Below, piece by piece: positions 11,559 through 54,995 of a DNA stretch of 64,000 nt (position 1 is the stretch's first letter; every line of letters starts with the position of its first letter). The notes beneath the pieces are model-generated. The model made no database searches. It worked only from the letters and a program-made list of their open reading frames with translations, and had not been told where the DNA came from. Source of the stretch: an uncultured Solirubrobacterales bacterium (GTDB lineage Bacteria; Actinomycetota; Thermoleophilia; Solirubrobacterales; 70-9); the NCBI GenBank assembly GCA_963698625.1, contig CAVORK010000003.1, forward strand, positions 411,317-475,316, in the 5' to 3' direction. Made by a program: the position numbers and the translations under genes.

Positions 11559-14500
11559 TTGAACAGAGCAGGACGAGCCGTAATCCGCTTCACAGCGCTT
11601 CTTTCCATCCTTGTTGCAGGGCTTTTCGCCGCCGCTACCGGGCCTGCGAACGCCGCCGAGCCGCCCGTGGCCTACGGGTCGGGATCGCTCGTGATCCCGA
11701 TGGATACGGATACGACGCTCAACCACACGGCCTACAACCAGAACAACGGCATGTGGAAGGCATACGGACTGCTCTACCGCCTGCTGGACAACGGCGTGCC
11801 GGTCTCCTGGGCCATAAACACGTCCAAGACCACGACCTCGACCACCGACTTCACGGTCTCCAGCGTCAAAGACCTGCAGGACGAATACCGCTCTCGGCGG
11901 CTGGGCCTACAAGGGCGGCGCCTTCGTGATCGACTCGGCCTACGCGACCCAGGCCAAATCACTGATCACCGCCTGGTGGGCCCAGAACTTGAACCTGCCT
12001 AACGTCCACGAGGCAAACACCGGCTTCACGGCTGAAGCGCCGGTGGTTCTTCGCTCACCGCCGAGGATCGCCAACGAAGAGACCAACTCCGGCATCTCGA
12101 TCGCGTACTACAACGCCGCGGGAATCCCGGATCTCCACTGGCGGTCCGTGGACCAGCAACTCGCCGAACATCCTCGACCAAGACGAAATCGCCGACGGCG
12201 GCCTGTTCACGCAGGGTGCCTGCCTCCAGAAGAGGTTCGACACCTTCGTAACGCCGCACAACGGCGGCTATTCCTACTCGCTGACCGACCCTTCGAACCT
12301 CGGCACGAGGACCTACTCACAGCTCGATACCTTCGTGAACCAGGGCGGCGGCTGGACGGCCCTCTGCCACTCGATCGAGAGCAACGAGAACGCAATGGCC
12401 GACCTGACCCGCAACGGCAGCGCTGCAGTCAAGGCACTCTTCAAGACCTCCGAGCCCGGCGGCAAGCCCGGCGGTCTGCTCACCGAGAACGGCTTCCCGG
12501 ACATCAATAACAACGGCGGCAACTGGGCCGTTCATGCTGCCGCGGCCAAGCTTCCGACGGCACAGCTCGTTCCGACCACCGGGGCCACCCAGAGTCTGCC
12601 GGGCGGTTCGGTCCAGACCTGGCCGGCACCCGGTCATCCCGGCGCCCCGACATACTGGTCCGAGACCGAACGCGTGGCTTCGTTTACCGATGGAGCCGAA
12701 GTCAGCGACCACATCATCGCCGGCACCTACCACGATGGCACCGGCGCAGGCAAGATCACCTTCGCCGGCGGCCACAGCTATTCGACCTCCGTTCCGTATT
12801 CAGGCAACGACGAGAGCCCTTACCTGCGGGCCTTCTACAACTCGCTGTTCTTCAACGGCACCGCCAAACCGCAGCTCGAGTTCTCGGCGCCGACGACGTA
12901 CCCGCAGAACGGTACCTCGACCATCCAGGCCGAGCTGAAGAACATCGGTGGCAGCACGGCTGTCAACGTGAACAACACGACTGTCGTCCTCGAGCCGGGA
13001 TTCAGCTACGTCAGCACCACCAGCGGCCCCACTCCGAGCGTCAGCGGTCAGACCCTGACTTGGCCGAACCTCGGGAACCTGCCCGGCGGCCAGACCGCCG
13101 TGACACTTGAACTCGCGGTCGCACCCTCCGTTTCTTCGACCATCGGCCAGAAGAAGATCGCCACGGTGAAAGCCGAGTACGGAGACGTATTCGGCGAGGG
13201 CTTCACCGGAGTCTTCTGCCGCGAGCTGACGATCACGCCGATCCCGGCCCCGAACGTCACCAAGACGCCCGGCAAGCCAGGGCCCCGTCGGTGCCGGAGC
13301 GCCGGTCACATGGACGATCAGCTACGGAAACACCGGTGCGGCTGCCCTGAGCGCCGCTCAGGTCGAAGATACGCTGCCCCCCGGCTTCACTTACATATCG
13401 AGCTCCTCTTCGCCTTCACTCGGCGCTCCGACTGTGATTCCGGGCCCGCAGGTCAAGGTTCGCTGGAATGCCGGCACGATTGCCGCGAACGCCCCGAATG
13501 CCGGCACCGTGACGATCACAGCCAGGGCGGGAGCAGTCACCAATGGCAGCGGGGATCCGCTCCAGCAGACCTTCACCAACACAGCCAAGCTGAGCGGTAC
13601 CGGCCCCGGCGGCCTGCCGTTCTCGGCTCAGGGCACGGCCACCGTGGTCGTCGAGCAAGGTGCCCTTTCACTGGGCAAGACCGCCGACAAGACCTCCGTC
13701 CAGACCCCGGGAACGTCACTTATACGCTGAAACCCGGCTTCAACTCCGGCGTTCAGCTCCAGAACGTCCGGGTCTTCGATCCCGCTGCCCACCGGCGTGA
13801 CTTCACCGCCGACCTCGATCGGCCAGGGCGGTACCTTCGGTCCTTACGTGCCGCTCGCCGCCGTGCCCGGCACCGATTCAGGCCCGCCGGTGCTCGATAC
13901 GGCGATGTCGGTGAGCAGCAACTTCCGCAATCAGGGCCAGTCGGTCACGGTCACGCTGAACGTCAAGAGCAGCACCGCCGTGACGACAGTATCTCCCGAT
14001 CTCAGCTCGACAGGCGGGAATGACGGCTGCGGCGCACCGGTACCCGCGACGGCCAACGTCCCGGCCGGCGGATCCGGCGTCAACTTCGTCTGGACCTGTA
14101 CCCCGGCGGACAGCGGCGAGTACGTCTTCTTCGGATCGGCCAGCAACGGCGTCGATACGGACTGGCCGCAGGCTCGCTCCTCCAGCGTGCTCGTGGCACC
14201 CGACGGTGGACCAAACGTGCGTCACCTGGAACCTCGGTTCGACCACCCAGGCCATTCCCGGCGAGACCATCATCACCGGCTACAAGGCCGGCGTTTTCGC
14301 TCTCCACGGGGACAAAGAGGTGACCTTCCGCAAGTACGAGCCCACCCCGGCCGCCTGGATCAACCGGGCCGACGCCCTGGCCGACGTCGGCAAGGGAGGC
14401 GCCCTGCCAGCGACGGAGCCGGCAAGGTCTACGCCCTGCGCGGCGACAAGACCCAGGCCTTCTGGGTCTACGACGTGACCACGAACGCCTGGACTTCGAG

Positions 14501-17500
14501 GGCCAACGTGGGCGAGCAACGTCGACGAAGGCGGTGCTCTCGTCTATCTGAACGGCTTCGTCTACGCCCTGACCGGCAAGGGAGACGGCTTCCGGCGCTA
14601 CGACCCGGGAGCCAACTCCTGGACTGCCCGGGCGGCGACCCCCGACGAACATCAAGTGGGGCGGCGCTCTGACCACCGACGGCACTTACATTTATGCCCT
14701 TCGCGGCGACGGCAAGCCCGATTTTTACCGCTACAACACGGTTTCCAATACCTGGACCTCGATGGCGAGCGCGCCGGCCAACGTCAAGGCCGGCGGCTCG
14801 CTGACCCGGATCGGCAACTACATCTACGCGGTGCAGGGCGACGGCAAGACCGGCTTCTACAGGTACGACATCTCCGCCAACACCTGGTCCACGATGGCGG
14901 TGACGCCCGGCAAAGGTCAAGGCACGGCGGAGCCCTGACGACCGACGGCACGGTGATTTACGCGCTCCAGGGCAACGGCAACGACCGGCTACTGGAAGTA
15001 CACCCCGGCCACGAACACGTGGTCGACGCTGGCGCCGACTTCGACCGACGTCAAGGACGGCGGCGCGCTCGCCTACGTGCCGGCCTCGAACCTGACCGGG
15101 CGTTTCTCCGACCTCACGCTGAACAAGTCCCTGACGTCCTCGGGCGACTCGCTGAAGATCACGATGGAATTCGCCGCGGACCCGCCGGTCAACAACATTT
15201 CACCGGGTACGCTGACGACGACAGCCACCGGCGGCGCGTCCTGTTCGAGCCTGACCGGCCCGGTCCTGGTCTCCGCCGATGACGACTCCGCCGGCACCAA
15301 CGACCCCGTGCGCTACGAGTGGACCTGCGTGGTCGCCGCCGGTACGAACCCGGGAAGTCTCAAGTTCAGCGCCAACGGCACCGGCGCCGGTCCGGCCACG
15401 TTCCCGACCGCGACCTCGAACAGCTCGATCGTCTCGCCGCTGTTGACCTTCACCGTCGGGATTCCCAATGGAGCACCGGATCCGGTGGTCAACGCCGGCG
15501 TAACCGCCTCGAAGAACTACTCGGCCGTCTCGCCGACCGTCGAAGTCGCCACCGGCAGCCCGAACCTCTCGATCGTCAAGTCGAACCACCCGACCGTCGC
15601 CACGGTGCTGAGGCCCGGCGACCAGATCGACTACACGATGGTCGTCGAGAACTCCGGAACCGCTCCGGCCACGAACGTCACTGTCTCCGACCTGGTTCCC
15701 GCGCAGGTCAGCTACGTCAGCTGCACCGGGGGCGTTTCCTGCAGCGAGTCGGCAGGCACGGTGACCTGGAACCTCGGAACGATCAACCCGGGTGACTCGC
15801 AGACGGTCACGTTCTCGGTCATCACCAAGCAGGACCTGGCCGTATCCGACACGGACTACACGGTTCGCAACAAGGCCAGCGTCGACTCGAACGAAACCGC
15901 GCCGAAGGACAGCAATGAAGTCACCAACCGGCTGCGGGTGCTGCCGACGGTGATCAAGGACGTTTCCGAGGTCGACGCGGTGGTCGGAGCAGACGCTCAC
16001 CTACACCGTCCAGGTGAACAACCCCGGTGCCGCCTTCGTCGCCAACGTCACTGACGCAATCCCGGCCGGAGCCAGCTTCAACGGAACCGGTACCTGTTCG
16101 CCGGCCTGCACTTTCGGCTCCGGGACTGTCACCTGGGCCTCGCAGAACATTCCGCCCGGAGGACCGACGACCTTCACCTTCGACGTCACCGTCACCGGAA
16201 CCCCGGGCAGTTCGATCCTCAACGAAGCCGTACTCGATCCCTCGACGCCGAACCTGGATCCGATCACCAGCAACGAGACCGAAACCGAGATCCTGGACCC
16301 GAACCTGGCCATCGACAAGTCCCACACCGGCAACTTCGCCCAGCGGCCAGATCGGCGCGACCTACACGATCGCTGGTCACCAACACCGGACCCGACGACA
16401 CGATCGGGCACGGTCACCGTCACCGACACCCTGCCCGCAGGCCTGACCGCCACCGCGATCGGCGGAGCCGGCTGGAACTGCGTGCTCGCCACTCTGACCT
16501 GCACCCGCAGCGACGTCCTGGCCAGCGGCGCCAGCTACCCGCCGATCACGCTGACGGTCAACGTCGCCAACAACGCACCGGCTCTCGGTCATCAACTCGG
16601 CGACCGCCTCCGGCGGCGGCGACCCGACCCCGGTCACCGACAACGACCCGACGATCATCGATCCGGCCAACCTGGCGATCAACAAGTCCCATACCGGCGA
16701 CTTCAGCCAGGGCCAGATCGGCGCGACCTACACGATCGCGGTGAGCAACAACGGTCCGAGCGCCACCACCGGCACCGTCACCGTCACCGACACCCTGCCC
16801 GCAGGCCTGACCGCCACCGCGATCAGCGGAGGCGGCTGGAGCTGCACGCTCGTCACCCTGACCTGCACCAGGAGCGACACCCTCGCTTCCGGATCCAGCT
16901 ACCCGGACATCACCCTGACGGTCAACGTCGCCAACAACGCCGGCAGCCCGCTGGTCAACTCGGCGACCGCTTCCGGCGGCGGCGATCCGACCCCGGTCAC
17001 CGATACCGACCCGACGGTCATCCGCTCGGTCAACCTGGCCATAGACAAGTCCCACAACGGCAACTTCGCCCGCGGCCAAAACGGAGCGACCTACAACATC
17101 GTGGTCACCAACAACGGACCTGACGCCACATCCGGCACGGTCTCGGTCACCGACTCCCTGCCGGCAGGCCTGACCGCAACCGCGATCAGCGGAGGCGGCT
17201 GGAGCTGCGTGCTCGCCACTCTGACCTGCACCAGAAGCGACGTCCTGGCCAGCGGCTCGAGCTACCCGCCGATCACCCTGACGGTCAACGTCGCCAACAA
17301 CGCACCGCTCTCGGTCATCAACTCGGCCACCGCCTCCGGCGGCGGCGATCCGACCCCGATCACCGACAACGACCCGACGGACATCGATCCGGCCAGCCTG
17401 GCGATCAACAAGTCCCATACGGGCAACTTCGCCCGCGGCCAGATCGGCGCGACCTACACGATCGCGGTCTCCAACCAGGGCCCCGGCGCCACCACCGGAC

Positions 17501-20398
17501 CGTCACCGTCACCGACACCCTGCCCGCAGGCCTGACCGCCACCGCGATCGGCGGAACCGGCTGGAGCTGCGTGCTCGGCTCCCTGACCTGCACCAGGAGC
17601 GACACCCTCGCTTCCGGATCCAGCTACCCGGACATCACCCTGACGGTCAACGTCGCCAACAACGCGCCGCGCATCGGTCATCAACTCGGCGACCGCCTCC
17701 GGCGGCGGCGACCCGACCCCGGTCACCGACGACGACCCGACGGTCATCCGCTCGGTCAACCTGGCCATCGACAAGTCCCACACCGGCAACTTCGCCCGCG
17801 GCCAAAACGGAGCGACCTACAACATCGTGGTCACCAACAACGGACCTGACGCCACATCCGGCACGGTCTCGGTCACCGACACCCTGCCGGCAGGCCTGAC
17901 CGCGACCGCGATCAGCGGCGGCGGCTGGAACTGCCTGCTCGGCACTTTGACCTGCACCAGAAGCGACGTCCTGGCCAGCGGCTCGAGCTACCCGCCGATC
18001 ACGCTGACGGTCAACGTCGCCAACAACGCGCCGGCATCGGTTATCAACTCGGCGACCGTGTGCGGCGGCGGCGATCCGACCCCGGTCACCGACAACGACC
18101 CGACAGACATCGATCCGGCCAACCTGGCGATCAACAAGTCCCATACGGGCAACTTCGCCCGCGGCCAGATCGGTGCGCACCTACACGATCGCGGTCAGCA
18201 ATACCGGTCCGGAGCCACAACCGGACCGGTCACAGTCACCGACACCCTGCCCGCAGGCCTGACCGCAACCGCGATCAGCGGACGGCTGGACCTGCGTCGC
18301 TCGGCACGCTGACCTGCACCCGTAGCGACACCCTGGCCGCCGACTCCAGCTACCCGCCGATCACGCTGACGGTCAACGTGGCCAACAACGCCGGCACTCG
18401 GCTGGTCAACTCGGCGACCGCCTCCGGCGGCGGCGATCCGACCCCGGTCACCGACGACGACCCGACCGTCGTCCGCTCGGTCAACCTGGCCATCGACAAG
18501 TCCCATACCGGCAACTTCACCCAGGGCCAGAGCGGCGCCACCTACACGATCTCGGTGACCAACAACGGTCCCGACGCCACCAGCGGCACCGTGACCGTCA
18601 CCGACACCCTGCCGGCAGGCCTGACCGCAACCGCGATCAGCGGCGGCGGCTGGAGCTGCGTGCTCGGCAACGCTGACCTGCACCCGCAGCGACTCGCTCG
18701 CCTCAGGCGCCAGCTACCCGCCGATCACGCTGACGGTCAACGTCGCCAACGACGCACCGGCATCGGTCATCAACCGCGCCACCGTCTCCGGCGGCGGCGA
18801 TCCGACCCCGGTCACCGACGACGACCCGACCACGATCGAAGAATCGGTGGCCGACGTTGCAGATCACCAAGACCGCAAGCCCCAGCGTCGTTTCTTACGG
18901 AGATACCGTCACCTACACACTGACCGCCAGGAATAACGGTCCCGGAGTGGCGAGAAACGTCGTCGTCAGCGACCCGATCCCGGCAGGTCTGACCTTTGTA
19001 TCGGCTGACGCACCGTGTGGCTTCGCCGCCGGAACCGTCAGCTGCGACCTCGGAGCCCTCAACCCGGGTCAGGAAGTAGTCCTCGAGGTCAAGGTCAAGG
19101 TCGACCCGCCGACGCCGACCGACCCGAACCTGGAACACCTGCTGGACGTCCAGAAGGTGGAGGCCCAGATCGATCTCGAAGCCGGCCAGGAGCGCACAGT
19201 CTCGGTCACCTGCCCGAGCGGATACTTCGTCTCTGACGGCTCGGTCCGGATCGACCAGATCGACCACGGCACCGGAGACTGGACCGCAGCCCAGGTTCTG
19301 TCTTCCGAAGCGAGCTCCCAGGACACCTGGCGAGGCGTCGTCAGGAACACCGCGACCGGTCGCGCCCAGGCGAAGATCTTCGCGGTCTGCATCAAGCGCA
19401 CAACCAACCAGATCGACGGCCATACGCATGATCTGACCATTTCCGGCCCGGTAGTAGTCGCCGAGACGGTCACCGCCGGTCCGCGCGAGGCGATCCTGCC
19501 CTGCCCCGCAGGCACGGTCGCAATCCAGCCCGGGTTCTCCTCCACGGCTCCCGCCGACCTGGTCTACTCGCAGCCCGAGGGCGACGGCTGGAAGTTCGTT
19601 CTCGACGTCTCGGCACCGGCTGACGTGACCTTCTCGATCCGCTGCATGTCGAGGCAGACCACCTCAAGCAACAGCCACGACCACAACCTCGACCTCAAGA
19701 GGATCTGGACCGAAGTCACGGTCCAGGGCGGCACTGTCAACGAGGCGCAGCTCACCTGCCCCGACGGCAGCAAGGGCATCGTCGCCGGCTGGGATCTCGA
19801 TCCCGGGCTGGTCAGCCTCGGAAACGACCCGCGTCCGGTTACCAGGGCCTTCAAGCTCTACAACCCGACCATGGGACCGCTTACCGCCAGGCTCAGCCTG
19901 CTTTGTCTCGGCAACATGACCAGCGGCCACAACGTCGGTCCGACCCAGATCGTCAACACGGCATACGTGTCGACTACGTCCAACGACGACAACAACGCCA
20001 ACAACCAGTCCTCCGCGACCATCACGGTCAACGCTTCGGGTACCAATAACCCCATTCCAGAGCCGGATCCGGACAAGCCGGTGGTCAACAACCCGATCGG
20101 GATGAGCCTCGGCGGCGACGTCATCTTCCGTCGCAACCGACTCACGGCAACAGTGACATGCGCGGGTGCCTGCTCGGGCAAGGCGAAGCTGTTCTCCGCC
20201 AGGACGGTCAAGGTCGGCAAGAAGAAGGTCCGCAAGGGCACCCTGCTTGCCAAAGGCACCTTCCGCTTCAACTCGGCCGGCAAGCGCCAGCTGAAGCTCA
20301 AGGTCAACCGGATCGGCCGCAAGGTCCTGAAGAAGAACGGCAAGGCCGTCCTGAAGCTCTCGTCGGGCGAGAAGAAGCTGGTCCGGGTCAGGCGCTGA
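11559..20398 (+). pseudogene. giant secreted surface protein A (~2940 aa if the frames are joined). Order: signal peptide, head type 1, Kelch-like propeller, DUF11 domains, 7 x 121-aa repeats, shared C-terminal module. The reading frame is broken at least ~20 times in this sequence.
   Basis: TTG start at 11559 with GGAGA 5 nt upstream. Signal peptide MNRAGRAVIRFTALLSILVAGLFAAATGPANA. ORF-track pieces 11559..12002, 11926..12510, 12335..14023, 13797..14672, 14656..15282, 15077..16054, 16014..17123, 16741..17535, 17827..18312, 18060..18923 and 18857..20398 are collinear with gene B and gene C protein sequence. Each break is a 1-2 nt indel, and I saw no in-frame nonsense codon. The breaks may be assembly errors rather than true decay. 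Confidence 0.6.
16302..18845 (+). repeat. tandem array of 7 x 363-bp coding repeats (121-aa CX6C unit) inside gene A
   Basis: Unit starts (the AAC/AGC CTG GCx ATx codons of N-L-A-I-[ND]-K-S-H) are at 16302, 16669, 17032, 17395, 17758, 18121 and 18483. Spacing is 363 bp, except 367 for the first unit (four 1-nt insertions) and 362 for the sixth (net -1). Confidence 0.9.
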
Positions 20399-20421
20399 TC
20401 GAGGCCGACCCCGGCCGGTTC

Positions 20422-20450
20422 CTGAAATTTGTCCCGCAATGGGTTATAAT
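20422..20450 (+). promoter_or_regulatory. candidate sigma-70-type promoter for giant gene B
   Basis: Perfect TATAAT at 20445-20450 in an AT-rich intergenic patch, with CTGAAA (20422-20427) 17 bp upstream as a weak -35. It implies a ~250-nt 5' leader. Confidence 0.35.
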
Positions 20451-20452
20451 TA

Positions 20453-20461
20453 CCGATTCAG
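20453..20461 (+). promoter_or_regulatory. conserved CCGATTCAG motif, copy upstream of gene B
   Basis: Exact 9-mer located 2 nt after the TATAAT box. A second CGATTCA occurs 18 nt downstream (20472-20478). The same 9-mer is present upstream of genes C and D. Confidence 0.45.
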
Positions 20462-39724: not shown

Positions 39725-40445
39725 CAGGATTCTGAGCGCCGCCCTGGTCCTGTCAGCACTCTGGCTGGGCCCGGTCGGCGTGGCTTCAGCCGGCACCACG
39801 GCCAACTACACGGGCGTGACCGGCAAGAGCTCCTGGTCGGCGCGCATCATGATTCGGACGAAGGCCTGGAGCCGGCCGGGCAACCGGGGTCGTGTCCGGA
39901 CGACCCTGCAGACGCAGTCAACCTGGGCCAAGGGTCCCCAGCACCTTCTGGTTCTGAACTCGGCCCAGGTGAAAGGCAGGACCTGGATCAAGGTCCGCCT
40001 GGCCTCCCGGCCCAACGCCGCTTCGGCCTGGATCCCTGCGAACCGCGCCCGGGTGGTCCGGAATCCGTGGCGGGTTCTGATCTCGAGGGGGGACCGCAAG
40101 GTGACTGTTTTCAAGTCGGGCAAGCCGGTGGTCAGGTTCCGGTCCGTTATCGGTGCCCCTGAGACTCCGACGCCCAAGGGTCTCTTCGCGATCTACGAAA
40201 AGGTGAGGCAGGTGCCTTCAAACGGCTTCCTCGGCCCGTTCGCTCTACACCTGACCGCGCATTCGAACGTGCTCGACAATTACGGGGGAGGCCCCGGGCG
40301 GGTCGCAATCCATGGCCGCGACGGCCTGTCCCTGCTCGACCCGCTCGGCACGGCACGTTCCCACGGCTGCATTCGGGTCAACAACAGCAGGATCAGGTTC
40401 CTGGCGAAGAAGCTGCCACTCGGCACCCCGGTGAGGATCCGCTAG
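39711..40445 (+). CDS. secreted L,D-transpeptidase (YkuD domain) with an N-terminal SH3-like region, overlapping the end of gene B
   Basis: GTG at 39711 with GAGG at 39702-39705. It overlaps the gene B stop (39722-39724) by 14 nt. Signal peptide ..ILSAALVLSALWLGPVGVASA. Catalytic motif ..IHGRDGLSLLDPLGTARSHGCIRVNN.. (the SHGC[IV]R signature of YkuD enzymes). Confidence 0.85.
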   Translation: MSPVSRILSAALVLSALWLGPVGVASAGTTANYTGVTGKSSWSARIMIRTKAWSRPGNRGRVRTTLQTQSTWAKGPQHLLVLNSAQVKGRTWIKVRLASRPNAASAWIPANRARVVRNPWRVLISRGDRKVTVFKSGKPVVRFRSVIGAPETPTPKGLFAIYEKVRQVPSNGFLGPFALHLTAHSNVLDNYGGGPGRVAIHGRDGLSLLDPLGTARSHGCIRVNNSRIRFLAKKLPLGTPVRIR

Positions 40446-40516
40446 GCACTGCCGGAGGGCGGTACTCGGCTGGTCCGCGCAATTGGCCGGATTCCTGCCG
40501 TTTCGTCCGAGTCTTG

Positions 40517-46700: not shown

Positions 46701-47904
46701 CGTCTCGGTCACCTGCCCGAGTGGCTACTTTGCCTCCGACGGCTCGGTCCGGATCGACCAGATCGACCACGGAACCGGTGACTGGCCGACGCAGCAGGTA
46801 CTCGAGTCCAGGGCCAGTTCGCTCGACACCTGGCAGGGCACCGTAAAAAACACCGCCACCGGTCGCGCCCAGGCCAAGATCTTCGCCGTCTGCATCAAGC
46901 AGACGACCAACCAGATCGACGGACACACCCATGATCTGATCGTCTCGGCACCGGTTACGGTCACCGCGGCGGTTCCTGCCGGCCTCCACGAGGAGACCCT
47001 CGCCTGCCCCGCAGGTACGGTTGCGATCCAGCCCGGCTTCAGCTCGACCGCTCCCGCCGACCTCGTCTACAGCGAGCCTGAAGGCAGCGGCTGGAAGTTC
47101 AGGCTTGACGTGAGCGCCGATGCCGACGTCACCTTCTCGATCCGCTGCATGTCGAGGCAGACCACCTCAAGCAGCGGCCACGACCATAACCTCGATCTAC
47201 AGCACATCGTTGCCGAGGTCACGGTCGAAGGCATGACCGTCAACGAGGCCCAGCTCACCTGCTCCGATGGCTACAAGGGCATCGTCGCCGACATGGACCT
47301 CGACCCCGGACTGGTCAGCCTCGGTAGCGACCCGCGTCCGGTGACCAGGGCCTTCAAGCTCTACAACCCGACCATGGGCCCGCTCAAGGCACGCATCAGC
47401 CTGCTTTGCCTGGGCAACATGACGAGCGGCCACAACATCGGTCCGGTTCAGATCGTCAATACCGCCTACATCACGACCACCTCCAACGACGAGACCCCGG
47501 CCAACAACCAGTCCTCGGCGACCATCACGGTGAACGCCACCGGCACCAACAACCCGATTCCGAACCCGGACCCGGACAAGCCGGTCGTCAACAACCCGAT
47601 CGGCATGAGCATCGGCGGAAGCGATGTTGCCCTGCGTGGCAACCGCGCCCTGGTGACGGTGAACTGCTCAGGTGCCTGCTCCGGCAAGGCCAGGCTGTTC
47701 TCAGCCAGGACGGTCAAGGTCGGCAAGAAGAAGGTCGGCAAGGGCACTCTGCTCGCCAAAGGCACCTTCCGCTTCAACTCGGCCGGCAAGCGCAAGCTGA
47801 AGCTGAAGGTCAACCGGACCGGTCGCAAGGTCCTGAGCAGAGGCGGCAAGGCCCTGCTCAAGCTCTCCTCGGGAGAGAAGAAGCTGGTGCGCATCAAGCG
47901 CTGA
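40738..47904 (+). CDS. giant secreted surface protein C (~2385 aa). Order: signal peptide, head type 2, DUF11 domain, 11 x 121-aa repeats, shared C-terminal module. About 3 frame breaks.
   Basis: ATG at 40738 (the ORF track opens at TTG 40726). Signal peptide ..ARTAIRFAPVIAVLAAGLAAAAPAQA. ORF pieces 40726..44010, 43385..44977, 44967..45470 and 45205..47904 are contiguous in protein sequence, with indels at about 43495, 44891 and 45330. The C-terminal 515 aa are closely similar to the end of gene A. Confidence 0.8.
42349..46356 (+). repeat. tandem array of 11 x 363-bp coding repeats (121-aa CX6C unit) inside gene C
   Basis: Unit starts are at 42349, 42712, 43075, 43438, 43805, 44168, 44531, 44895, 45261, 45625 and 45988. 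Spacing is 363 bp, or 364-367 where there are indels or a 1-aa longer linker. Confidence 0.9.
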
Positions 47905-48007
47905 GCGTCTTCTGGCAGGTCTTTCTCACAGGCCTCACAGTCCTGGTCCGGTAACGGGACGGCTTAAAGCCGCTTTACCTGAGCTTGTTACCTTTAATAC
48001 TCGGCCG

Positions 48008-48031
48008 ACCGGCCTCGCAAGGCCGGTTTTT
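48008..48031 (+). terminator. rho-independent terminator after gene C
   Basis: ACCGGCC (48008-48014), loop TCGCAA, GGCCGGT (48021-48027), running into TTTTT (48027-48031). Confidence 0.6.
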
Positions 48032-48063
48032 CGCTTCTGTAAAGAAGAAAAGCGAATCTTCCG

Positions 48064-48083
48064 CCGATTCAGACTGTTGAATC
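48064..48083 (+). promoter_or_regulatory. conserved CCGATTCAG motif embedded in a perfect palindrome, 19 nt upstream of the gene D start
   Basis: CCGATTCAG at 48064-48072. GATTCA (48066-48071) and TGAATC (48078-48083) are exact inverted repeats separated by 6 nt, an operator-like architecture. Confidence 0.45.
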
Positions 48084-48101
48084 AACAGAAAGCTTTACAC
48101 C

Positions 48102-51100
48102 TTGAGCCCTGCGATCAAAACACCTCTGTCTCTTCTTGCGGCCATTTTGGCTCTGCTTATGGGCCTGGCCTTCGCGTCGACCGCTCAGGCAGCCGGTACG
48201 CCCGATGTCCAGCTGGCCGCGAACGCGGGCAGTCCTCTCTACGGCCAAGCCGGGACGTCTTCGTCTACCGCGGCTCTTGGAAACGGTCAGCCGAGCGGCT
48301 ACAACCTCAGCTTTCGTGCCGTCCTGCCGGCCGGCATCTCCTACACCGGCGGCGCTGTGTTCCCGCCCCAGGTGATCAACAACGCTCCTGCAACCGGTCA
48401 GACCACGCTGGTCTTCTCAAATGTCTCAGACCTGGTCGCGAATTCGCAGCAGGGCATCGCGCTGAACCTGGCGCATGACCAGAGCATCTACGGGGTCGGC
48501 GACAGTTACGCGATCACCTGGCAGGCCTTCGTCAACTCGGATCCGCGCACGCTGCCGAAATTCAGCGCGAGCGGGGTGCCGGACCCCGCCTCCTTCACCG
48601 GATCCGCCACCGCCTCCGCAACTGCTCAGATCCTCGCGATCAAACTCTCCAAGTCCGAGCCAAGCCGTGAAGGCGAGATCCTCCGTGGGGTTCACGACAA
48701 CCAGACCGTTTACACGCTGACCCTCCAGAACAATTCGGTCAACCCGACCGCGGCGACGACCATCGACGATTACCTGCCTGCCGGCCTCGAGTTCCTCGGC
48801 TGCACCGGTACCCCTGACAGCACGACCGATGCCCCGACCAACCCGGGCAGTTCGCAGGAGTACCCCGGTTCGGGTCCGATCGTGGTCAATGCCGTTCCGG
48901 ACTGCTTCTCCCCGGTGCTGGTCGAGACGGTCCAGACCGACCCCGACCTCGCCGGTCCGATGCCATTCGCCGTATATACGCATGTGCGCTGGAACACAGG
49001 AACCCTGGCGCCGTCCCAGCAGATCACCTACCGCTATCGCGCAGCAGTTCCGCTGGCCGCGAACACCCTCACCTGGAGCGGCTCCCAGCCGACCGCTGCC
49101 TCGGGCCTGCAGGCCGCCAACCTGGACAACAACTCCGGTCCCGAGATCACCGATGAGCAGGACCTGACCAACTACGCCGCGGCGGCCGGTACCTACCAGG
49201 GCACCGGGGGAGACCTGAGCGTCGCTTCGGACGCGAGGTTGAGCCGCACCGCCGAGGACCTGGTGGTCTACAAGAGCGGCAGTTCGGGCAGCCTCGGCCA
49301 GGGGAACATCACGCAGTGGGAGCTGAAGTTCCGGACCGGCGAGTACCGCTACAGCGATGACATCGTCGTCACCGACACCCTGCCCAGTGGTCTCTGCCCG
49401 CTCGGACCGGTCAACTACACGACCGGAAACGACCCCAGCGACAGCGAGTGCGCGCCGACCGGCGACGATCCCAGCGTCCCCTACCAGTCGGTGACCGAGA
49501 ACAGCGACGGCACTTTCACGATCACCTGGGACAAGAGCAAGCTCGCCAAGCTCGGCCACACCAATGTGAACGACGAGTTCGTAATCACTTTCCCGACCAG
49601 GACCCGCAACAGCTTCCAGAGCAACTTCCTGCCGACAACACCCATTCTCGCGATGGACTCGGTCTCGAACAAGGTCGATCTCACGGGAAACGCTTTCTCA
49701 AGGTGCGTCGCGCCCGGCACTCCCGACTGCTCGACCACCGGCCCGCGAATCTGGAGTGATGCCGGTCAGCCTGAACCGGTCGTGGACGCCTCTGCCGCCG
49801 GCCAGACCGCTCCGCAGGTGGTTCTCAAGAAGGAAGTCGCCGCCACCGGCACCAACTGCCAGGCGGTCACCTACGGCAACACCGTTCCGGTCTACCACCC
49901 CGGTGACAGGCTTTGCTGGCGACATCACGGTCGACTTCCCCGCGAAAGTCGATACGAAGGGTTTCGTAGCGACCGACTTCCTGCCGCTGAACTCGACCTA
50001 CGTTTCGGGGAGCGCACAGGATACGGCGGCCAATACGACCACGAACACGCTTGACGACAGCGCCGCTTCAGCCGGCCTGCTCAACTGGACGATCGACGGC
50101 GGGGTCGTTCCGACCGGCGGCCGGAAGTTCCAGGTCACCTTCGCCACCAACCTGATGCCGGTCGGCATCATCGACAGTTCCGACATCAAGGGCAATCTGC
50201 TCAAGTTCGGGATTCAGAACACTCCGGGGCAGGCCTTCCCGCTGCGTGATCAGGCGGAATTCGAGACAGTGCCGGTAACGGTCGGGATCAAGAAGGGCGT
50301 GCGCCAGGTAAACAGCGGCGCGATCCAGGATCCGCCGGCTGACGGCCTCACGGTGCGCGCGGGAGACATCGCGACCTACCAGGTTGACGTCAAGTCAACC
50401 GGTGACAGCAAGGAAGTTCAGGTCTGGGACCGGCTTCCCGCTGCCTTCGACTGCACTGCGGTGAGCGTGATCTCGGACGGCGGCGTCTGCGTCGACGGTG
50501 GCACCGGTCGCGACGTGATCAAATGGACCGTTCCGGCGATCAACGACGGCGCGACCAAGGTCTCTGACCTACAAGGTCCAGATCCCGTCCGACGTCGGGC
50601 CGGAGAACACCTACACCAACGAATCCGGTGTACGCGAGTACAAAGCGGAGACCAACATCGGCACGCTGTTCACCTACACGCCGGAAAACAACATCGACCC
50701 GGCGAACCCGAATACGCCGAACATCGCCCGGGTTGATGACCCGAGTGACGTCAACACTCCCGTCGTCGCGATCTCCAAGAGCCGCAGTACCTCGATCACC
50801 GAGGCCGGCAACAGCAATTCGCAGGCAACGATCGGGGAGACCATCAACTACACGGTCACGACCACGCTGCCCGCCGGCACGACGATGGGGACCAACGCGA
50901 GCATCGTCGACACTCCCAACTCGGCCGCCACCCAGCCGATCGTCGGCACGCCGACGGCGCTGCTCAACGGCAACCCGCTGCCCCCGGATTGGACCATCAC
51001 CACGTCTGGTCAGGTAGTCACCGTCCGCATGCCAGACAACTACGTCATCCCGAACGGCAGCAACCACGTCGTCACGATGTTTATCTCGACTCGCGTCGCC

Positions 51101-54100
51101 AACACGAGCAACAACGCCAACCGTCGCGGTCAAAGCCGGACCAACCAGGCCACGGTCAGCTGGACCGACGGAATCCCTTACAGCGCCGACTCGAATCAGG
51201 TGTCGACGACTATTGTCGAGCCGCTCATCTCCCAGAGCAAGACGAACTCGGTCCAGCCAGGCTCGGCCCTGCCCGGAGATACCGTCACCTACACGCTGGT
51301 CACCAGGAACTCCGGTTCTTCCAACGTCAGCATCGCTCACGACACGGTGATTCGCGACGTCGTACCCGTCGGAATGACGCCGGTCGATGCCGGTGGCAGT
51401 CCGCTGGCTGACGGAGTCCTCGTACCCGGAACCGGGGGCTCAACCTGGAACCTCGGCGAGCCGTACGATCACCTCACCGGCGGTTGACATCAATCCCGGT
51501 GCCAACGTGACCTGGAGCTACAAGGCGAAGATCGACAGCCCCGCCATCGCGGGCGCCAGCCTGGTCAACACGGCTGATGCGAAGACGACGTCGATCAGCG
51601 GCAGTGATCCGAACGAGCGCACCTCCGCCAGCCCATACAACACCGGTTACGTCGCGTCCTCGAGCAGCGCCGTGAAAGTCACCGGGGCAACGGTGGCCAA
51701 AGCGGTCGACCCGGCCTGGGCCACAATCGGCACGCCGCTGACCTACACGGTCGACCTGACCATCCCGAAGAATCTGACCATGTTCGACCTGACCGCGGTC
51801 GACACACTGCCGGACTCGCTCGACTTCGACAGTTACACCTCGGCGACCTGTGTTTCCGGCTGCCCGGCCAACCCCGCCCCGACAGTTCAGACCTACGACC
51901 CGGTGATCACGCCTTCGTCGACCACGATCGCCTGGGACCTCGGCAACATCACGCCGGGTACCACCGACCGCGTCATCCGCTTCACCTTCAGGGCGCATGT
52001 GCGTGACACGTACCGCTCCAGTGGTGCCAAGGTCAAGGCCGGGGACAACATCGTCAACGTGGTGCGCGCCCAGTCGAACCTGAGCGACAAGTTCACCTTC
52101 AACCCCGCCAGCCTGCCTGCCGTCAACACCTTTGACTACGTATCGCCGAACGCGACCGTGAGCACCCCGGTTCGCGAGCCGAACATCGCGCTCGACAAGA
52201 AGGTGAAGGTCAACTCCGGTTCCTTCGTGGACGGGCCGGTTCAGAGCCAGCCCGGCGACACGCTGACCTACAGCCTCGCCGTGAAGAACAACGGCTCCAG
52301 CGCCGCCTATGACATGGTCGTGACCGACAAGCCAGATACGAAGATCACGAACGTGGTTCTCGCTCAGGGCGCAGCTTTCAACACTGACGGATGGACCCAG
52401 GCCGACCCGACCATGAAGTGGACCATCCCCGGTCCGATCGCGCCCGGTGAGACGGTGACCCTGACCTACACCGCCGAGCCGCTGCCCTCAGCCCAGCTTC
52501 AGGCCGGCGACAGGGCGATCAACACCGCCGGCTCAAATTACTGGGGCCTGCCGTCTTCCGAGCGGAGCAACCCGTGGACCTACCGCAACTACGACAGCAA
52601 CAACGACACCGTGCGTGTCAACTTCGACTTCCCGGAGATCTCGGTCAACAAGACGACCACGGCCCCGGGTTTCCCGGACATCGCCGATGCTCCGGTGCTG
52701 CAGCCCTTCGGCTGGAGGATCGTCGTCAGGAACAACGCGACCACCGCCAGGGCGCTCGACACCGTGGTCAAGGACACTCTGCCGCCGGCATGGACCTATG
52801 ACGCCGGTTCGACCGCGATCACCGGAGCCGTCACCGCCGAGCCATCCGTCGTGACCAACCCGGCCGGCGACGCGCTGACCTGGGACTTCACAGGTCAGAC
52901 GATCCAGCCTGGTGCCAGCGTGACGATCACCTTCACTGCCACCCCGCAGCTCGCTGCGCGCCTGAACCCGCCGGTCCAGGTCAACGACGCGCACGCCGAC
53001 GCCAGGGACGCCAGCGGTAGCGACCGCAACCTCGACGGCCCCTACACCGACGAAGACGACGCCAGGGCGACACTGAAATTCCCGAAGAACGACCTCGAGA
53101 TCGACAAGAGCGCCCCGGCGGTCGTCGAGTCGCAGGCGACCTTCGACTACACGATGAAGGTGACCAACAACGGACCTGACCCTGCGACCGGCGTGGTCAT
53201 CAACGACCCGCTGCCCGCCGGCCTGACCTTCATCAGCTCCGGCGACTGCAGCCCGGCCATGGTCTGCAACCTCGGATCGCTCGCAGTCGGGGCCAGCAAG
53301 ACCGTCACCGCTCAGGTCAAGGCGACTTACGCCGTTGCCGGCACGATCGTGGTCAACACCGCGGTGGTCACCGGCAACGAGTTCGAGACCAACATCGACA
53401 ACAACACCGACACGGTCGAGACCAAGGTTCTCGGCGAGCCCGATGTCAAGATCACCAAGACCGCGATGCCGACCAACCCGCGTCCGGGCGACATCATCAC
53501 CTACAGGCTCAAGGCCGAGAACGTCGGTACCGCGATCGCCGAGAACGTGGTCGTCACCGACACCCTCCCGGTCGGAGTCACCTTCGTCTCCGCCGACTCG
53601 CCCTGTGTCGAGAACGCCGGCAACATCAGCTGTGAGACTCGGCTCGATGACCCCGGGTGACGTGATCTGGCTCGAAGTCAAGGTCAAGGTCGACACCTGG
53701 GGCAACGCCAACACCGACGGCCGACCACCTGATCGACGTCCAGAAGGTCGAAGCACAGATCGACCTCGAAGCCGGAGAACAGAAGACCGTCTCGGTCACC
53801 TGCCCGTCCGGATACTTCGTCTCCGACGGCTCGGTCCGGATCGACCACATCGATCAGGGCACCGGCGACTGGACCGCGCCGCAGGTTCTCGAATCGCGGG
53901 CATCGAGCCTCGATACCTGGCAGGGAACCGTGAAGAACACCGCCACGGGCCGCGCCCAGGCCAAGATCTTCGCGGTCTGCATCTCGAAGAAGACGGTCGA
54001 TGTACGACGACCACAGCCACGACCTGATCACGAGCGACCAGATCTTCGTCAATCACGAAGCCCTAGCCGGCAAGGACGAGGCTACGCTCCAGTGCGGACC

Positions 54101-54995
54101 CGGCCAGATCGCGATCCAGCCCGGCTTCAACTCGACCGCCCCGGCCGACCTCGTCTACAGCGAACCCGAGGGCAACGGCTGGAAGTTCATCCTCGACCTC
54201 AAGGCCGACGGCTGACGTCACCTACTCGATCCGCTGCATGACCCGCCAGGTCTCGGTTGTCAACGGCCATACCCATGACCTCAAGCTTGAGCACCTGGTC
54301 AACGAGGTCACGATCCAGGGCAACACGGTCAACGAGGCCCAGCTCACCTGCGCCGACGGCTACAAGGGCATCGTCGCCGACATGGACCTCGACCCCGGAC
54401 TGGTCAGCCTCGGCAACGATCCGCGTCCGGTGACCAGGGCCTTCAAGATCTACAACCCGACCGATCGGGCCCGCTCAACGCAAGGATCAGCCTGCTCTGC
54501 CTGGGCACGAGGACCGGTGGCGAGCACCTGCCGCCAAAGGTTCTGGTCAACAGCGCTCACATCACGACGACCACGTTCGAGACCGTCACGAGCAACAACA
54601 TGTACTCGGCCACGGTCATCGCGGAGGACACCGACAACCACACCCCGGTGACTCCGAAGCCTCCGGTCAAGCCGACCCCGAACAACCCGATCGGCATGAG
54701 CATCGGCGGAAGTGACGTCGCCTTCCGCGGCAGCGAGGGTCCTGGCCACGGTCAAGTGCACCGGAGCCTGCTCACGGCAAGGCCAGGCTGGTCTCGGTCA
54801 AGACGGTCAAGGTCGGCAGGAAGAAGTTCCGCAGGGGCACCGTGCTCGCCAAGGGCAGCTTCAGGTTCAACACGGCCGGCAGGCGCAAGCTGAACCTCAA
54901 GGTCAACGAAGAAGGGCCGCAAGGTCCTCAAGCAGACCCCCAAGGCCCTGCTGAAGCTCTCCTCAGGCAAGCAGAAGCTCGTCCGCATCCGGTAG
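48102..54995 (+). CDS. giant secreted surface protein D (~2295 aa). Order: signal peptide, multiple DUF11-type domains (no 121-aa repeats), shared C-terminal module. At least 10 frame breaks, concentrated after 53.6 kb.
   Basis: TTG at 48102. Signal peptide MSPAIKTPLSLLAAILALLMGLAFASTAQA. ORF pieces 48102..50054, 49756..50736, 50885..51487 and 51387..53660, plus short pieces to 54995, are contiguous in protein sequence. DUF11-like units include ..DLEIDKSAPAVVESQATFDYTMKVTNNGPDPATGVVINDPLPAGLTFISSGDC... The end, ..GRRKLNLKVNEEG / RKVLKQTPKALLKLSSGKQKLVRIR (stop 54993-54995), parallels the tails of genes A and C. Confidence 0.7.

What the first reader, a model, noticed from the sequence alone, without database searches (positions are those of the whole stretch)
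11559..54995. 43-kb locus of four co-oriented giant secreted repeat proteins assembled from shuffled modules
Four same-strand genes lie between ubiA (ends 11192) and a strong terminator (55021-55051). After joining frameshifted ORF pieces they measure ~8.8, ~19.0, ~7.2 and ~6.9 kb. Each opens with a Sec-type signal peptide: A MNRAGRAVIRFTALLSILVAGLFAAATGPANA, B MKSGNRLVVRFTAFIAVLVAVAAFAFGTQSATA, C ..ARTAIRFAPVIAVLAAGLAAAAPAQA, D MSPAIKTPLSLLAAILALLMGLAFASTAQA. A, B and C share an R-x-x-[IV]-R-F n-region. The proteins are mosaics of a few modules. Heads: type 1 plus Kelch-like propeller (A, B), type 2 (C), DUF11-only (D). Stalks: 121-aa CX6C repeats (A x7, B x35, C x11, D none). Tails: C-terminal module X (A, C, D) versus a lysine-rich DUF11 foot (B). 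Two thirds of the window goes to one paralogous family with module exchange, no recognisable sorting signal, and one embedded cell-wall enzyme. This looks like a dedicated, uncharacterised cell-surface fibre/adhesin system.
Basis: partly seen in the sequence, partly recalled or inferred. Interest (0 to 1): 0.75.

Follow-up and report, generated by a model that had tools for sequence, protein, structure and literature searches.

The report
Giant surface-fibre genes with transpeptidase anchor
Four neighbouring giant genes of a soil actinobacterium (class Thermoleophilia) encode long surface fibres built from a known bead-like domain, and the largest ends in a conserved GGVTG tail that is almost always encoded next to a cell-wall cross-linking enzyme, which suggests an undescribed way of fixing proteins to the cell wall.

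Summary
Four co-oriented genes lie between ubiA and a terminator: A 11559-20398, B 20710-39724, C 40738-47904 and D 48102-54995. All have Sec signal peptides and are broken by 1-2-nt frameshifts. The frameshifts look like long-read assembly errors, because a syntenic MAG carries an intact 2,269-aa D orthologue.

The 121-aa "CX6C" repeats (7, 35 and 11 copies) are themselves DUF11, now named CLIPPER. This is the characterised isopeptide stalk domain of fibrillar adhesins. Lys and Asp are kept in 53/53 repeats and Asn in 48/53. Giant CLIPPER proteins are common, so the class is known.

New here:
- Two head modules and C-terminal module X have no family or solved relative.
- B ends in GGVTG-COOH, and the YkuD L,D-transpeptidase gene overlaps its stop by 14 nt.
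- Among tail loci found without reference to the enzyme, 8 of 10 carry the same transpeptidase subfamily next door. About 114 chance-match control loci carry none.

I infer a sortase-like anchoring step, which is untested. A, C and D lack this motif and end in a strongly basic domain. None of the four has LPXTG.

The parts
11559..20398 (+). Gene A, about 2,950 aa after frameshift correction. It has a signal peptide, head type 1 (N-domain plus Kelch propeller), 7 CLIPPER repeats, a split CLIPPER carrying module X, and a basic C-terminal domain ending KKLVRVRR.
16302..18830 (+). A stalk array: 7.0 copies of a 363-bp (121-aa) CLIPPER/DUF11 unit
20710..39724 (+). Gene B, about 6,340 aa. It has a signal peptide, head type 1, 35 tandem CLIPPER units plus further CLIPPER domains, and a Lys-rich terminal CLIPPER 'foot' ending ...SSARGGGVTG.
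20809..22398 (+). Head type 1 N-terminal module of B: an alpha/beta domain followed by an Ig-like domain. It matches no Pfam or NCBIfam family. Cys236, Glu243 and His371 are conserved.
23430..24270 (+). Kelch-type beta-propeller of B (about six blades; coordinates approximate)
25442..38070 (+). B stalk array: 34.6 copies of the 363-bp CLIPPER unit
39326..39724 (+). Terminal CLIPPER domain of B with the invariant C-terminal GGVTG-COOH motif
39711..40445 (+). YkuD L,D-transpeptidase, 244 aa, with a signal peptide, an N-terminal domain and the catalytic motif HG...SHGCIRV. Its GTG start overlaps B's stop by 14 nt.
40738..47904 (+). Gene C, about 2,390 aa. It has a signal peptide, head type 2 (340 aa without a family, then an isopeptide-type domain), 11 CLIPPER units, module X and a basic C-terminal domain ending KKLVRIKR.
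42375..46341 (+). C stalk array: 10.9 copies of the 363-bp CLIPPER unit
46354..47601 (+). Split CLIPPER domain of C carrying module X. X is an insertion of about 290 aa made of three Cys-bracketed beta modules with GHxHxL motifs. After it come the last CLIPPER strands (the NTA motif) and a Pro-rich linker.
47602..47904 (+). Basic C-terminal beta domain of C: 100 aa with 28 Lys/Arg against 2 Asp/Glu. The same domain ends A and D.
48007..48028 (+). Terminator-like hairpin between C and D
48102..54995 (+). Gene D, about 2,300 aa. It has a signal peptide and heterogeneous CLIPPER-like domains without a tandem array, then module X and a basic tail ending KLVRIR. It is orthologous to an intact 2,269-aa gene in L004.
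55020..55051 (+). GC-rich hairpin plus T-run closing the locus

Best explanation
The locus encodes four Sec-exported giant surface-fibre proteins of a monoderm Thermoleophilia (Actinomycetota) bacterium. They belong to the fibrillar-adhesin / grappling-hook class.

Each protein has three parts:
- A distal N-terminal head. Type 1 has a novel alpha/beta domain with a conserved Cys/His/Glu, followed by a Kelch propeller. Type 2 and D's head are different.
- A stalk of CLIPPER/DUF11 Ig-like beads. Each bead is probably locked by a Lys-Asn isopeptide bond and a CX6C disulfide.
- A proximal C-terminal anchoring module.

Heads, stalk lengths and tails have been recombined among the paralogues.

Two anchoring modes are inferred. 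B ends in GGVTG-COOH. It is probably attached covalently to peptidoglycan by the L,D-transpeptidase that is translationally coupled to it. In this model the L-Thr-Gly-COOH end mimics the L-centre-D-Ala-COOH end of a stem tetrapeptide. The catalytic Cys releases Gly, and the Thr carbonyl is passed to a stem-peptide amine, as a sortase does with LPXT|G. A, C and D end in module X plus a very basic beta domain that probably binds the anionic cell wall non-covalently.

Shown: gene structure, domain homology, conservation of the catalytic and isopeptide residues, and the GGVTG-transpeptidase gene pairing.

Inferred: surface display, adhesion, the isopeptide bonds themselves, and both anchoring chemistries.
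For: Architecture: signal peptides; DUF11 hits of 389, 307, 187 and 177 bits; tandem arrays.

Stalk: a profile of the repeats matches the CLIPPER crystal structure 9IFR (E=5.9e-5), with Lys, Asp and Asn aligned, and the GhpA grappling-hook protein 9FLP (E=2.5e-8). Across the 53 repeats Lys is kept in 53, Asp in 53, Asn in 48, and the Cys pair in 52 and 53. CLIPPER is documented as the isopeptide stalk of fibrillar adhesins (PMC12617251).

Module exchange. The positional counterpart of C in L004 has a third head type.

GGVTG-transpeptidase pairing:
- In the window the two genes overlap by 14 nt.
- Homologues of the terminal domain end in GGVTG in 22 of 23 sequences read out.
- Loci found through the tail alone (L016, L017, L018, L019) all have an adjacent YkuD gene 47-75% identical to the window's.
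- In a DNA-pattern scan, four of six true tail loci have it (L023, L034, L050, L114). None of about 114 chance-match loci does.
- Loci found through the enzyme (L005 Gaiella, L006 Thermoleophilaceae) have GGVTG proteins next door.

Enzyme: it has a signal peptide and the HG...SHGCIRV motif.

Against a Lys-acceptor model: 15 of 33 tails have no Lys in the last 30 residues.

No LPXTG and no C-terminal hydrophobic segment in any of the four proteins.

Basic tail: 28 Lys/Arg against 2 Asp/Glu in 100 aa; predicted beta domain with pLDDT 85-93.
Against: There is no experimental evidence of any kind, and the organism is an uncultured MAG.

Every L,D-transpeptidase-mediated protein attachment listed in the December 2025 review uses the protein as acceptor, through a Lys or an N-terminus, and occurs in diderm bacteria. 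A protein C-terminus acting as acyl donor has no precedent that I could find.

Three close homologues of the enzyme (L007, L008, L013) have no GGVTG gene within 10 kb. Two tail loci (L099, L035) and one variant tail (L020...GNGVTG) show no transpeptidase in the DNA available.

The GGVTG word may itself have helped retrieve candidates.

The function of the heads is unknown. Head 1 may be an enzyme rather than an adhesin.

Gene A carries about 22 frameshifts and could be decaying.
Confidence: 0.55

Rival explanations
1. The transpeptidase acts on B in the known Lpp-like direction: peptidoglycan is the acyl donor and a Lys of the Lys-rich foot is the acceptor. Alternatively, it only remodels the wall locally so that giant fibres can pass. 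In either case GGVTG is a docking or structural motif and not a cleavage site.
For: All documented protein attachments by L,D-transpeptidases use the protein as acceptor. B's last 120 residues contain 12 Lys. The enzyme subfamily also occurs without a GGVTG neighbour.
Against: The conserved element is the extreme C-terminus GGVTG, which has no amine side chain. The residue before it is usually Arg, not Lys. 15 of 33 family tails lack any Lys in their last 30 residues, and 3 lack Lys in all the sequence examined, up to 120 residues. A purely structural motif would not need to sit exactly at the C-terminus in every member read.
Confidence: 0.2
2. The proteins are subunits of multimeric grappling-hook-type filaments used to catch other cells, like GhpA and GhlA. 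They are not monomeric adhesins.
For: B's size and plan resemble GhpA and GhlA: about 6,340 aa, a head of about 1,500 aa and about 45 Ig-like domains. GhpA has 5,898 aa, a 1,400-aa hook and 52 Ig-like repeats, with its anchor genes encoded downstream. GhlA has 6,596 aa and 49 DUF11 domains. The repeat profile hits GhpA.
Against: Head 1 has no sequence match among solved structures, and no 9FLP chain is among the 50 best fold matches shown. Oligomerisation cannot be tested here. Thermoleophilia are not known predators (my own knowledge). This rival is compatible with the main explanation apart from stoichiometry and use.
Confidence: 0.15
3. The frameshifts are real and the locus is a set of decaying pseudogenes, so no functional system exists in this organism.
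For: There are about 44 frame changes in 43 kb, and they are unevenly spread: A about 2.5 per kb, B and C about 0.45 per kb, and none in the 11-kb left flank.
Against: No in-frame stop remains after correcting single-base shifts, and conserved residues read straight through the shifts. D keeps 77% identity over its full length to an intact 2,269-aa orthologue, from which it differs by about ten 1-2-nt indels. Flanking housekeeping genes, such as the DEAD-box helicase, are also shifted. Related contigs with Flye-style names from the same ENA series show the same fragmentation, including in their transpeptidase genes.
Confidence: 0.08
4. The arrays are assembly chimeras or mis-sized repeat collapses, so the gene lengths and the number of genes are artefacts.
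For: The 363-bp tandem repeats span up to 12.6 kb. The syntenic short-read MAG L004 has only two genes and four repeats at this site.
Against: Units within an array are only about 78% identical in DNA and about 79% in protein, so they are distinguishable to an assembler. A second contig (L002, 88% identical) independently shows the same order of an A-like gene followed by a B-like gene. Both flanks are syntenic with L004. It is the short-read assembly that is more likely to be collapsed.
Confidence: 0.05

Closest known systems
CLIPPER (DUF11, PF01345) fibrillar adhesins, for example Acinetobacter silvestris B9T28_05395 (PDB 9IFR; Costa et al. 2025, PMC12617251)
   Same: Signal peptide, N-terminal head, tandem CLIPPER stalk and C-terminal anchor. 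The Lys/Asp/Asn isopeptide triad aligns, and each domain also carries a disulfide.
   Different: That protein has 2,129 aa, comes from a diderm and is anchored by an OmpA-like domain, with CshA-like heads. Here the proteins reach about 6,340 aa, come from a Gram-positive lineage, have heads and tails without any family, and carry the disulfide as CX6C in mid-domain rather than as a C-terminal CTTC.
Grappling-hook proteins GhpA (Aureispira, PDB 9FLP) and GhlA (Litorilinea aerophila)
   Same: Single polypeptides of about 6,000 aa made of about 50 Ig-like or DUF11 beads, with a large N-terminal terminal structure and a C-terminal sorting element. In GhpA the anchoring genes lie directly downstream.
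   Different: GhpA is a type 9 secretion substrate anchored through PorP/PorE homologues in an outer membrane, and it forms heptamers. GhlA is reported to lack a signal peptide. The heads here are unrelated, and the downstream gene is an L,D-transpeptidase.
Sortase / LPXTG anchoring of Gram-positive surface proteins
   Same: The proposed chemistry is the same: a Cys transpeptidase cleaves a Thr-Gly bond at the C-terminus and links the Thr to a peptidoglycan amine, and the enzyme gene lies beside the substrate gene. Many other giant CLIPPER proteins do use LPXTG: at least 23 of the 150 best representatives.
   Different: There is no LPXTG, no hydrophobic segment and no charged tail. The motif sits at the very C-terminus. 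The enzyme has a YkuD fold, not a sortase fold.
L,D-transpeptidase-mediated tethering of Lpp, OutB and beta-barrel outer-membrane proteins (review PMC12729407)
   Same: A YkuD enzyme is dedicated to linking a protein covalently to peptidoglycan, and a short terminal motif on the protein is recognised.
   Different: The known cases are in diderms and use a protein Lys or N-terminal amine as the acceptor. Here the conserved tail has no amine, which implies either the reverse (donor) role or another function.

Membership tests
CLIPPER / DUF11 (PF01345, TIGR01451) | Profile match above the curated cut-off | tested here: met
   Pfam DUF11 scores of 389.1, 307.4, 187.0 and 176.5 bits against a cut-off of 24.6. 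TIGR01451 scores 121 bits on B's tail.
CLIPPER / DUF11 (PF01345, TIGR01451) | Lys / catalytic Asp / Asn isopeptide triad at the positions of 9IFR Lys715, Asp748 and Asn806 | tested here: met
   The profile-to-9IFR alignment places the repeat's K6, D41 and N97 on these residues. Lys is kept in 53/53 repeats, Asp in 53/53 and Asn in 48/53, with Gln in the other 5. Whether the bond actually forms cannot be tested here.
Fibrillar adhesins (as defined in PMC9210967 and PMC12617251) | Signal peptide plus a stalk of tandem repeat domains | tested here: met
Fibrillar adhesins (as defined in PMC9210967 and PMC12617251) | A recognised adhesive domain at the distal end | tested here: inconclusive
   There is a Kelch propeller (Kelch_6 34.7 bits against a cut-off of 25.3) and weak AgI/II-C2-like and RrgB-like hits. 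The head N-domains match no family and no solved structure.
Fibrillar adhesins (as defined in PMC9210967 and PMC12617251) | Demonstrated surface location and binding | not testable with these tools
   This needs proteomics, microscopy or binding assays in a cultured relative.
Sortase substrates (LPXTG cell-wall sorting signal) | [quoted passage not shown] | tested here: not met
   No L[PAS]x[TAS]G occurs in the last 200 residues. The longest hydrophobic run in the last 100 residues is 5 or fewer in all four proteins.
Lpp-type L,D-transpeptidase acceptors | C-terminal or near-terminal Lys that is linked to mDAP | tested here: not met
   B ends in ...GGVTG. In the family the residue before the motif is mostly Arg, and 15 of 33 tails have no Lys in the last 30 residues. 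A and D end in RR and IR. Only C has a Lys, at position -2.
YkuD L,D-transpeptidases (PF03734) | Profile match above the cut-off and a catalytic His/Cys motif | tested here: met
   69.9 bits against a cut-off of 23.4. IHGR...SHGCIRV is conserved in the window and in most aligned homologues; the exceptions look frameshifted.
Grappling-hook proteins (GhpA/GhlA) | Homologous hook-forming N-terminal region and oligomeric stem | tested here: not met
   Only the Ig-like/CLIPPER beads match 9FLP. The head profile finds nothing in the PDB, and no 9FLP chain is among the 50 best fold matches shown. Oligomerisation is not testable here.

The most novel reading that the evidence does not exclude
GGVTG-COOH together with the adjacent YkuD enzyme is a previously unrecognised protein-sorting system of Thermoleophilia. 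In it an L,D-transpeptidase works like a sortase. It takes the protein's L-Thr-Gly-COOH end as acyl donor in place of a stem tetrapeptide, releases Gly, and links the Thr to peptidoglycan. This would be the first L,D-transpeptidase-dependent anchoring of a Gram-positive surface protein, and the first case in which the protein is the donor.
Probability: 0.35. Interest if true: 0.85.

Novelty: new variant of a known kind. Interest (0 to 1): 0.64.

Why it matters
Sortase/LPXTG is the textbook route for fixing proteins covalently to Gram-positive walls. L,D-transpeptidases are known to tether proteins only in diderm bacteria, and only with the protein as acceptor. A conserved C-terminal GGVTG tail that is nearly always encoded beside one transpeptidase subfamily gives a concrete, cheaply testable candidate for a second, sortase-independent anchoring chemistry. 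One enzyme, one heptapeptide and muropeptide mass spectrometry would suffice.

If it holds:
- It widens the substrate range of a drug-target enzyme family.
- It explains how an abundant but little-studied soil lineage displays fibres that could be around 200 nm long (my estimate).
- It could provide a new peptide-ligation tool.

The locus also supplies three sizeable domain families with no annotation: the head-1 N-domain, the head-2 N-domain and module X. It is in addition a clear natural example of head, stalk and tail shuffling in giant adhesin genes.

Tried and rejected
- Exact-sequence look-ups of ubiA, the transpeptidase and the deposited B fragment found nothing.
- A single-sequence search of two stalk repeats against the PDB found nothing. 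A profile was needed.
- Profiles of head 1 and module X find no solved relative beyond the host CLIPPER domain. Head 2 finds none either.
- Fold searches of the two AlphaFold models returned mostly generic Ig-like hits. The only suggestive ones were OST48-like or TRAP-like matches for head 1 (TM about 0.3) and the PCSK9 C-terminal domain for module X (TM about 0.3). I do not treat these as homology.
- The exhaustive profile search with the GGVTG tail domain was swamped by generic multi-CLIPPER giants. It says little about the motif beyond three further -VTG ends.
The DNA pattern needed a fixed TGA stop, so TAG and TAA tails, such as the window's own, were not sampled, and most of the 120 hits were chance.
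- A Tat signal was considered for the R-x-x-[IV]-R-F n-region and rejected because there is no twin arginine.
- LPXTG/sortase anchoring and Lpp-like Lys anchoring were tested and not met.
- No NCBIfam or Pfam model covers the GGVTG tail, module X or the head N-domains.
- Literature searches for GGVTG and for YkuD with sortase-like anchoring found nothing relevant.
- Promoter and terminator scans of the intergenic gaps were uninformative, apart from a hairpin after C and a promoter-like site before B.


Full report
**1. What is in the sequence**

The window has about 65% G+C. Between ubiA (10284-11192, PF01040) and a GC-rich hairpin with a T-run at 55020-55051, the + strand carries one long run of coding sequence that keeps changing frame.

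A codon-usage Viterbi path that allows 1-2-nt shifts joins the pieces into four genes with no in-frame stop:

| Gene | Start | Stop | Length | Frame shifts |
|---|---|---|---|---|
| A | 11559 | 20398 | ~2,950 aa | ~22 |
| B | 20710 | 39724 | ~6,340 aa | ~9 |
| C | 40738 | 47904 | ~2,390 aa | 3 |
| D | 48102 | 54995 | ~2,300 aa | ~10 |

- A ends ...KKLVRVRR.
- B ends ...SSARGGGVTG.
- C ends ...KKLVRIKR.
- D ends ...KLVRIR.

Tandem Repeats Finder gives 363-bp arrays of 7.0, 34.6 and 10.9 copies. A 244-aa YkuD L,D-transpeptidase gene (39711-40445; 69.9 bits against a cut-off of 23.4) starts 14 nt before B's stop codon.

**2. Are the frameshifts real?**

Probably not.
- The 668-aa first fragment of B exists with 100% identity as a called protein on a 565,556-bp public contig, so the shifts are in the deposited assembly.
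- Close relatives come from one ENA series with Flye-style contig names. They are fragmented in the same way, including in their transpeptidase genes.
- Related MAGs carry the 'MFD' label. I take this to mean long-read soil MAGs, which is my own inference.
- A syntenic MAG, L004 (GCA_942491915.1), is about 80% identical in DNA across the left flank. It has an intact 2,269-aa D orthologue that is 77% identical over its full length.
- Against that orthologue, the window's D shows about ten persistent frame changes caused by 1-2-nt indels.
- Housekeeping genes on the right flank, such as the DEAD-box helicase at about 59.3-60.5 kb, are also shifted.

One point is unexplained. The shift density is very uneven: A about 2.5 per kb, D about 1.5 per kb, B and C about 0.45 per kb, and none in the 11-kb left flank. 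Real decay of A cannot be excluded.

An assembly chimera is unlikely. Units within an array are only about 78% identical in DNA and about 79% in protein. An independent contig (L002, 88% identical) shows the same order of an A-like gene followed by a B-like gene.

**3. The modules**

*Stalk.* The '121-aa CX6C repeats' are DUF11 domains (PF01345; 389 bits on one B fragment). Newer Pfam annotation calls this family CLIPPER. Costa et al. 2025 (PMC12617251) showed it to be a CnaA-like Ig domain that carries a Lys-Asn isopeptide bond catalysed by an Asp. [quoted passage not shown]
- A profile of the repeats matches that crystal structure (9IFR, E=5.9e-5), with the three residues aligned.
- It also matches the Aureispira grappling-hook protein GhpA (9FLP, E=2.5e-8).
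- Across all 53 repeats, Lys is kept in 53, Asp in 53 and Asn in 48 (Gln in the other 5). The two Cys are kept in 52 and 53.

*Head type 1 (A and B, 72% identical).* It begins with a domain of about 430 aa that matches no Pfam or NCBIfam family.
- Its homologues are other Thermoleophilia-like proteins and, more distantly, Myxococcota proteins that carry a MYXO-CTERM sorting domain.
- AlphaFold gives a confident alpha/beta domain followed by an Ig-like domain (pLDDT 87).
- It has no convincing solved relative.
- A Cys on a strand-Cys-helix elbow, a Glu and a His are conserved across the family. The domain may therefore be catalytic.
- After it come a DUF11 domain and a Kelch propeller of about six blades.

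*Head type 2 (C).* It has 340 residues without any family or solved relative, followed by an isopeptide-type domain.

*D.* It is a chain of divergent CLIPPER-like domains without a tandem array.

*Module X (A, C and D; 57-65% identical).* It belongs to a family found in Solirubrobacterales and other Actinomycetota MAGs and in Nocardioides pacificus.
- The alignment and the Pfam coordinates show an insertion of about 290 aa into the last CLIPPER domain. The DUF11 profile matches positions 1-85 before the insertion and 89-114 after it.
- The insertion consists of three Cys-bracketed beta modules with GHxHxL motifs.
- After it come a Pro-rich linker and a beta domain of about 100 aa with 28 Lys/Arg against 2 Asp/Glu.

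**4. Evidence for module exchange**

Within the window the combinations are:
- head 1 with tail X (A);
- head 1 with the GGVTG tail (B);
- head 2 with tail X (C);
- D's own head with tail X (D).

The same chromosomal site in L004 is bounded by ubiA on one side and by citrate synthase and PfkB on the other, as in the window. It holds only two genes. One is the D orthologue. The other has a third head type joined to four repeats and a tail 84% identical to C's. L004 looks like a short-read assembly, which is my inference, so its repeat count may be collapsed.

**5. The C-terminus of B and the transpeptidase**

*Searching with the enzyme.* Searching genomes with the window's transpeptidase found homologues in Gaiella, Thermoleophilaceae and Solirubrobacteraceae MAGs.
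- In L005 the gene just upstream ends ...GRPGGVTG.
- In L006 the gene just downstream ends ...QRPGGVTG.

*Searching with the tail.* A profile of the three tails retrieved 32 proteins. Of the 23 read out, 22 end in [RK][PG]GGVTG. All of these are terminal CLIPPER domains with an extra Cys pair.

*Loci reached through the tail alone.* All four have a YkuD gene next door that is 47-75% identical to the window's:
- L016: the enzyme gene starts 24 nt after the stop.
- L017: two GGVTG proteins and three YkuD genes lie within 9 kb.
- L018: the enzyme gene starts 31 nt after the stop.
- L019: the two genes overlap by 14 nt, exactly as in the window.

*DNA-pattern scan.* A pattern for R-[PG]-G-G-V-T-G-TGA scanned over the metagenome collection returned 120 loci, most of them chance matches in short open frames.
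- Of the six with a true tail, four have the enzyme overlapping or adjacent (L023, L034, L050, L114).
- L099 has none within 10.6 kb downstream.
- L035 has only 577 nt downstream.
- None of the roughly 114 chance loci has this enzyme at all.

*One variant tail.* A protein ending ...ARGNGVTG from a Solirubrobacteraceae MAG has no enzyme within 5 kb downstream.

*Summary of the pairing.* 8 of 10 independently retrieved strict-motif loci have the enzyme adjacent. If a genome carries a handful of such enzymes, the chance of adjacency is well under 1% per gene. This last figure is my estimate, not a computed statistic.

*The converse is weaker.* Three close enzyme homologues (L007, L008, L013) have no GGVTG neighbour. 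Nothing in the alignment separates them from the associated enzymes.

**6. Mechanism**

*Shown.*
- The enzyme has a signal peptide and the His/Cys catalytic motif.
- The tail motif is invariant and sits at the extreme C-terminus.
- The two genes are translationally coupled or adjacent.

*Established knowledge (my own, plus the review PMC12729407).* YkuD enzymes attack the carbonyl of the L-centre residue at position 3 of a stem tetrapeptide. They release the terminal D-Ala and pass the acyl group to an amine. They can also exchange that terminal residue, and they tether certain proteins to peptidoglycan.

*Inference.* L-Thr-Gly-COOH could occupy the donor site, because Gly has no side chain and can stand in for D-Ala. 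The enzyme would then release Gly and link the Thr to a stem-peptide amine. This is the same product chemistry as sortase acting on LPXT|G.

*The alternative.* The Lpp-like direction, with a protein Lys as acceptor, fits the literature. It fits the motif poorly:
- GGVTG has no amine side chain.
- The preceding basic residue is mostly Arg.
- 15 of 33 tails have no Lys in their last 30 residues.

B's Lys-richness is therefore particular to B and is not a family trait.

*A, C and D.* I propose non-covalent binding of the very basic terminal domain to the anionic wall. This rests only on composition and position. No conserved enzyme neighbour was seen for module X genes.

**7. Comparison with what is known**

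The class is known.
- CLIPPER-stalk fibrillar adhesins are described in PMC12617251.
- Giant DUF11 fibres have been imaged. [quoted passage not shown] GhlA has 6,596 aa and 49 DUF11 domains and forms fibres of about 180 nm.
- An exhaustive profile search shows that such giants are common. 85,675 representatives hit the profile, and the best 150 have 2,000-7,600 aa and 15-61 domains. At least 23 of those end in LPXTG plus a membrane segment.

So neither the size nor the repeat count of these genes is exceptional.

What differs here:
- The head-1 and head-2 N-domains and module X are unannotated.
- There is no sortase signal.
- The GGVTG-transpeptidase pairing is new as far as I could check. No NCBIfam or Pfam model covers it, and I found no paper on it. 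The 2025 review lists protein tethering by these enzymes only in diderms, with the protein as acceptor.

**8. Verdict**

- The locus is a new variant of a known kind.
- Most of the interest lies in the testable anchoring hypothesis. I put it at roughly one in three for the specific donor-mode mechanism. The probability is higher for some functional link between the tail and the enzyme.

Noticed in passing
window 6295-11192: Three genes lie in a row: a fatty-acyl-reductase-like (NAD_binding_4) plus short-chain dehydrogenase fusion, an FAD_binding_4/FAD-oxidase_C protein (the Pfam pair seen in alkyl-DHAP synthases), and a UbiA prenyltransferase. The same order occurs in L004. This may be an ether-lipid or prenyl-lipid cluster.
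   Followed up: no
window 2223-6179 (-): A 1,318-aa protein fuses a lipoyl domain, an E3-binding domain, an E2 acyltransferase and a 2-oxoglutarate dehydrogenase E1 in one OdhA-like polypeptide. It is conserved in L004.
   Followed up: no
window 20809-22100 (B) and the equivalent region of A: The head-1 N-domain has a conserved Cys on a strand-Cys-helix elbow, an invariant Glu seven residues later, and an invariant His in a GGH motif. This looks like a catalytic site rather than a lectin. Distant homologues are Myxococcota proteins with MYXO-CTERM.
   Followed up: partly
window 11559-54995 against 1-11200: Frameshift density is very uneven: about 2.5 per kb in A, 1.5 in D, 0.45 in B and C, and none in the 11-kb left flank. 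Random read error does not obviously explain this. It may reflect systematic consensus errors, or real decay of A.
   Followed up: partly
window, B repeats 13, 18, 22, 33 and 35: Five of B's 35 stalk units have Gln where the isopeptide-forming Asn should be. These beads may lack the cross-link.
   Followed up: no
L017 1-8500: Two CLIPPER proteins ending in (A/P)GGVTG and three YkuD genes cluster within about 9 kb. This looks like an expanded version of the pair seen in the window.
   Followed up: partly
window 46630-47400 (module X of C): Three Cys-bracketed beta modules with GHxHxL motifs are inserted inside a CLIPPER domain. The nearest fold match is the Cys/His-rich C-terminal domain of PCSK9, with TM about 0.3, which is too weak to call homology.
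   Followed up: partly
L004 7792-11737: The positional counterpart of gene C in the syntenic MAG has a different N-terminal head with no family hit in its first ~430 aa, and only four repeats. It also has one frame break at about 10000-10023.
   Followed up: partly
window 55150-60520: The right flank holds citrate synthase and a PfkB-family kinase on the minus strand, as in L004. It also holds a DEAD-box helicase on the plus strand that needs two frame corrections.
   Followed up: partly
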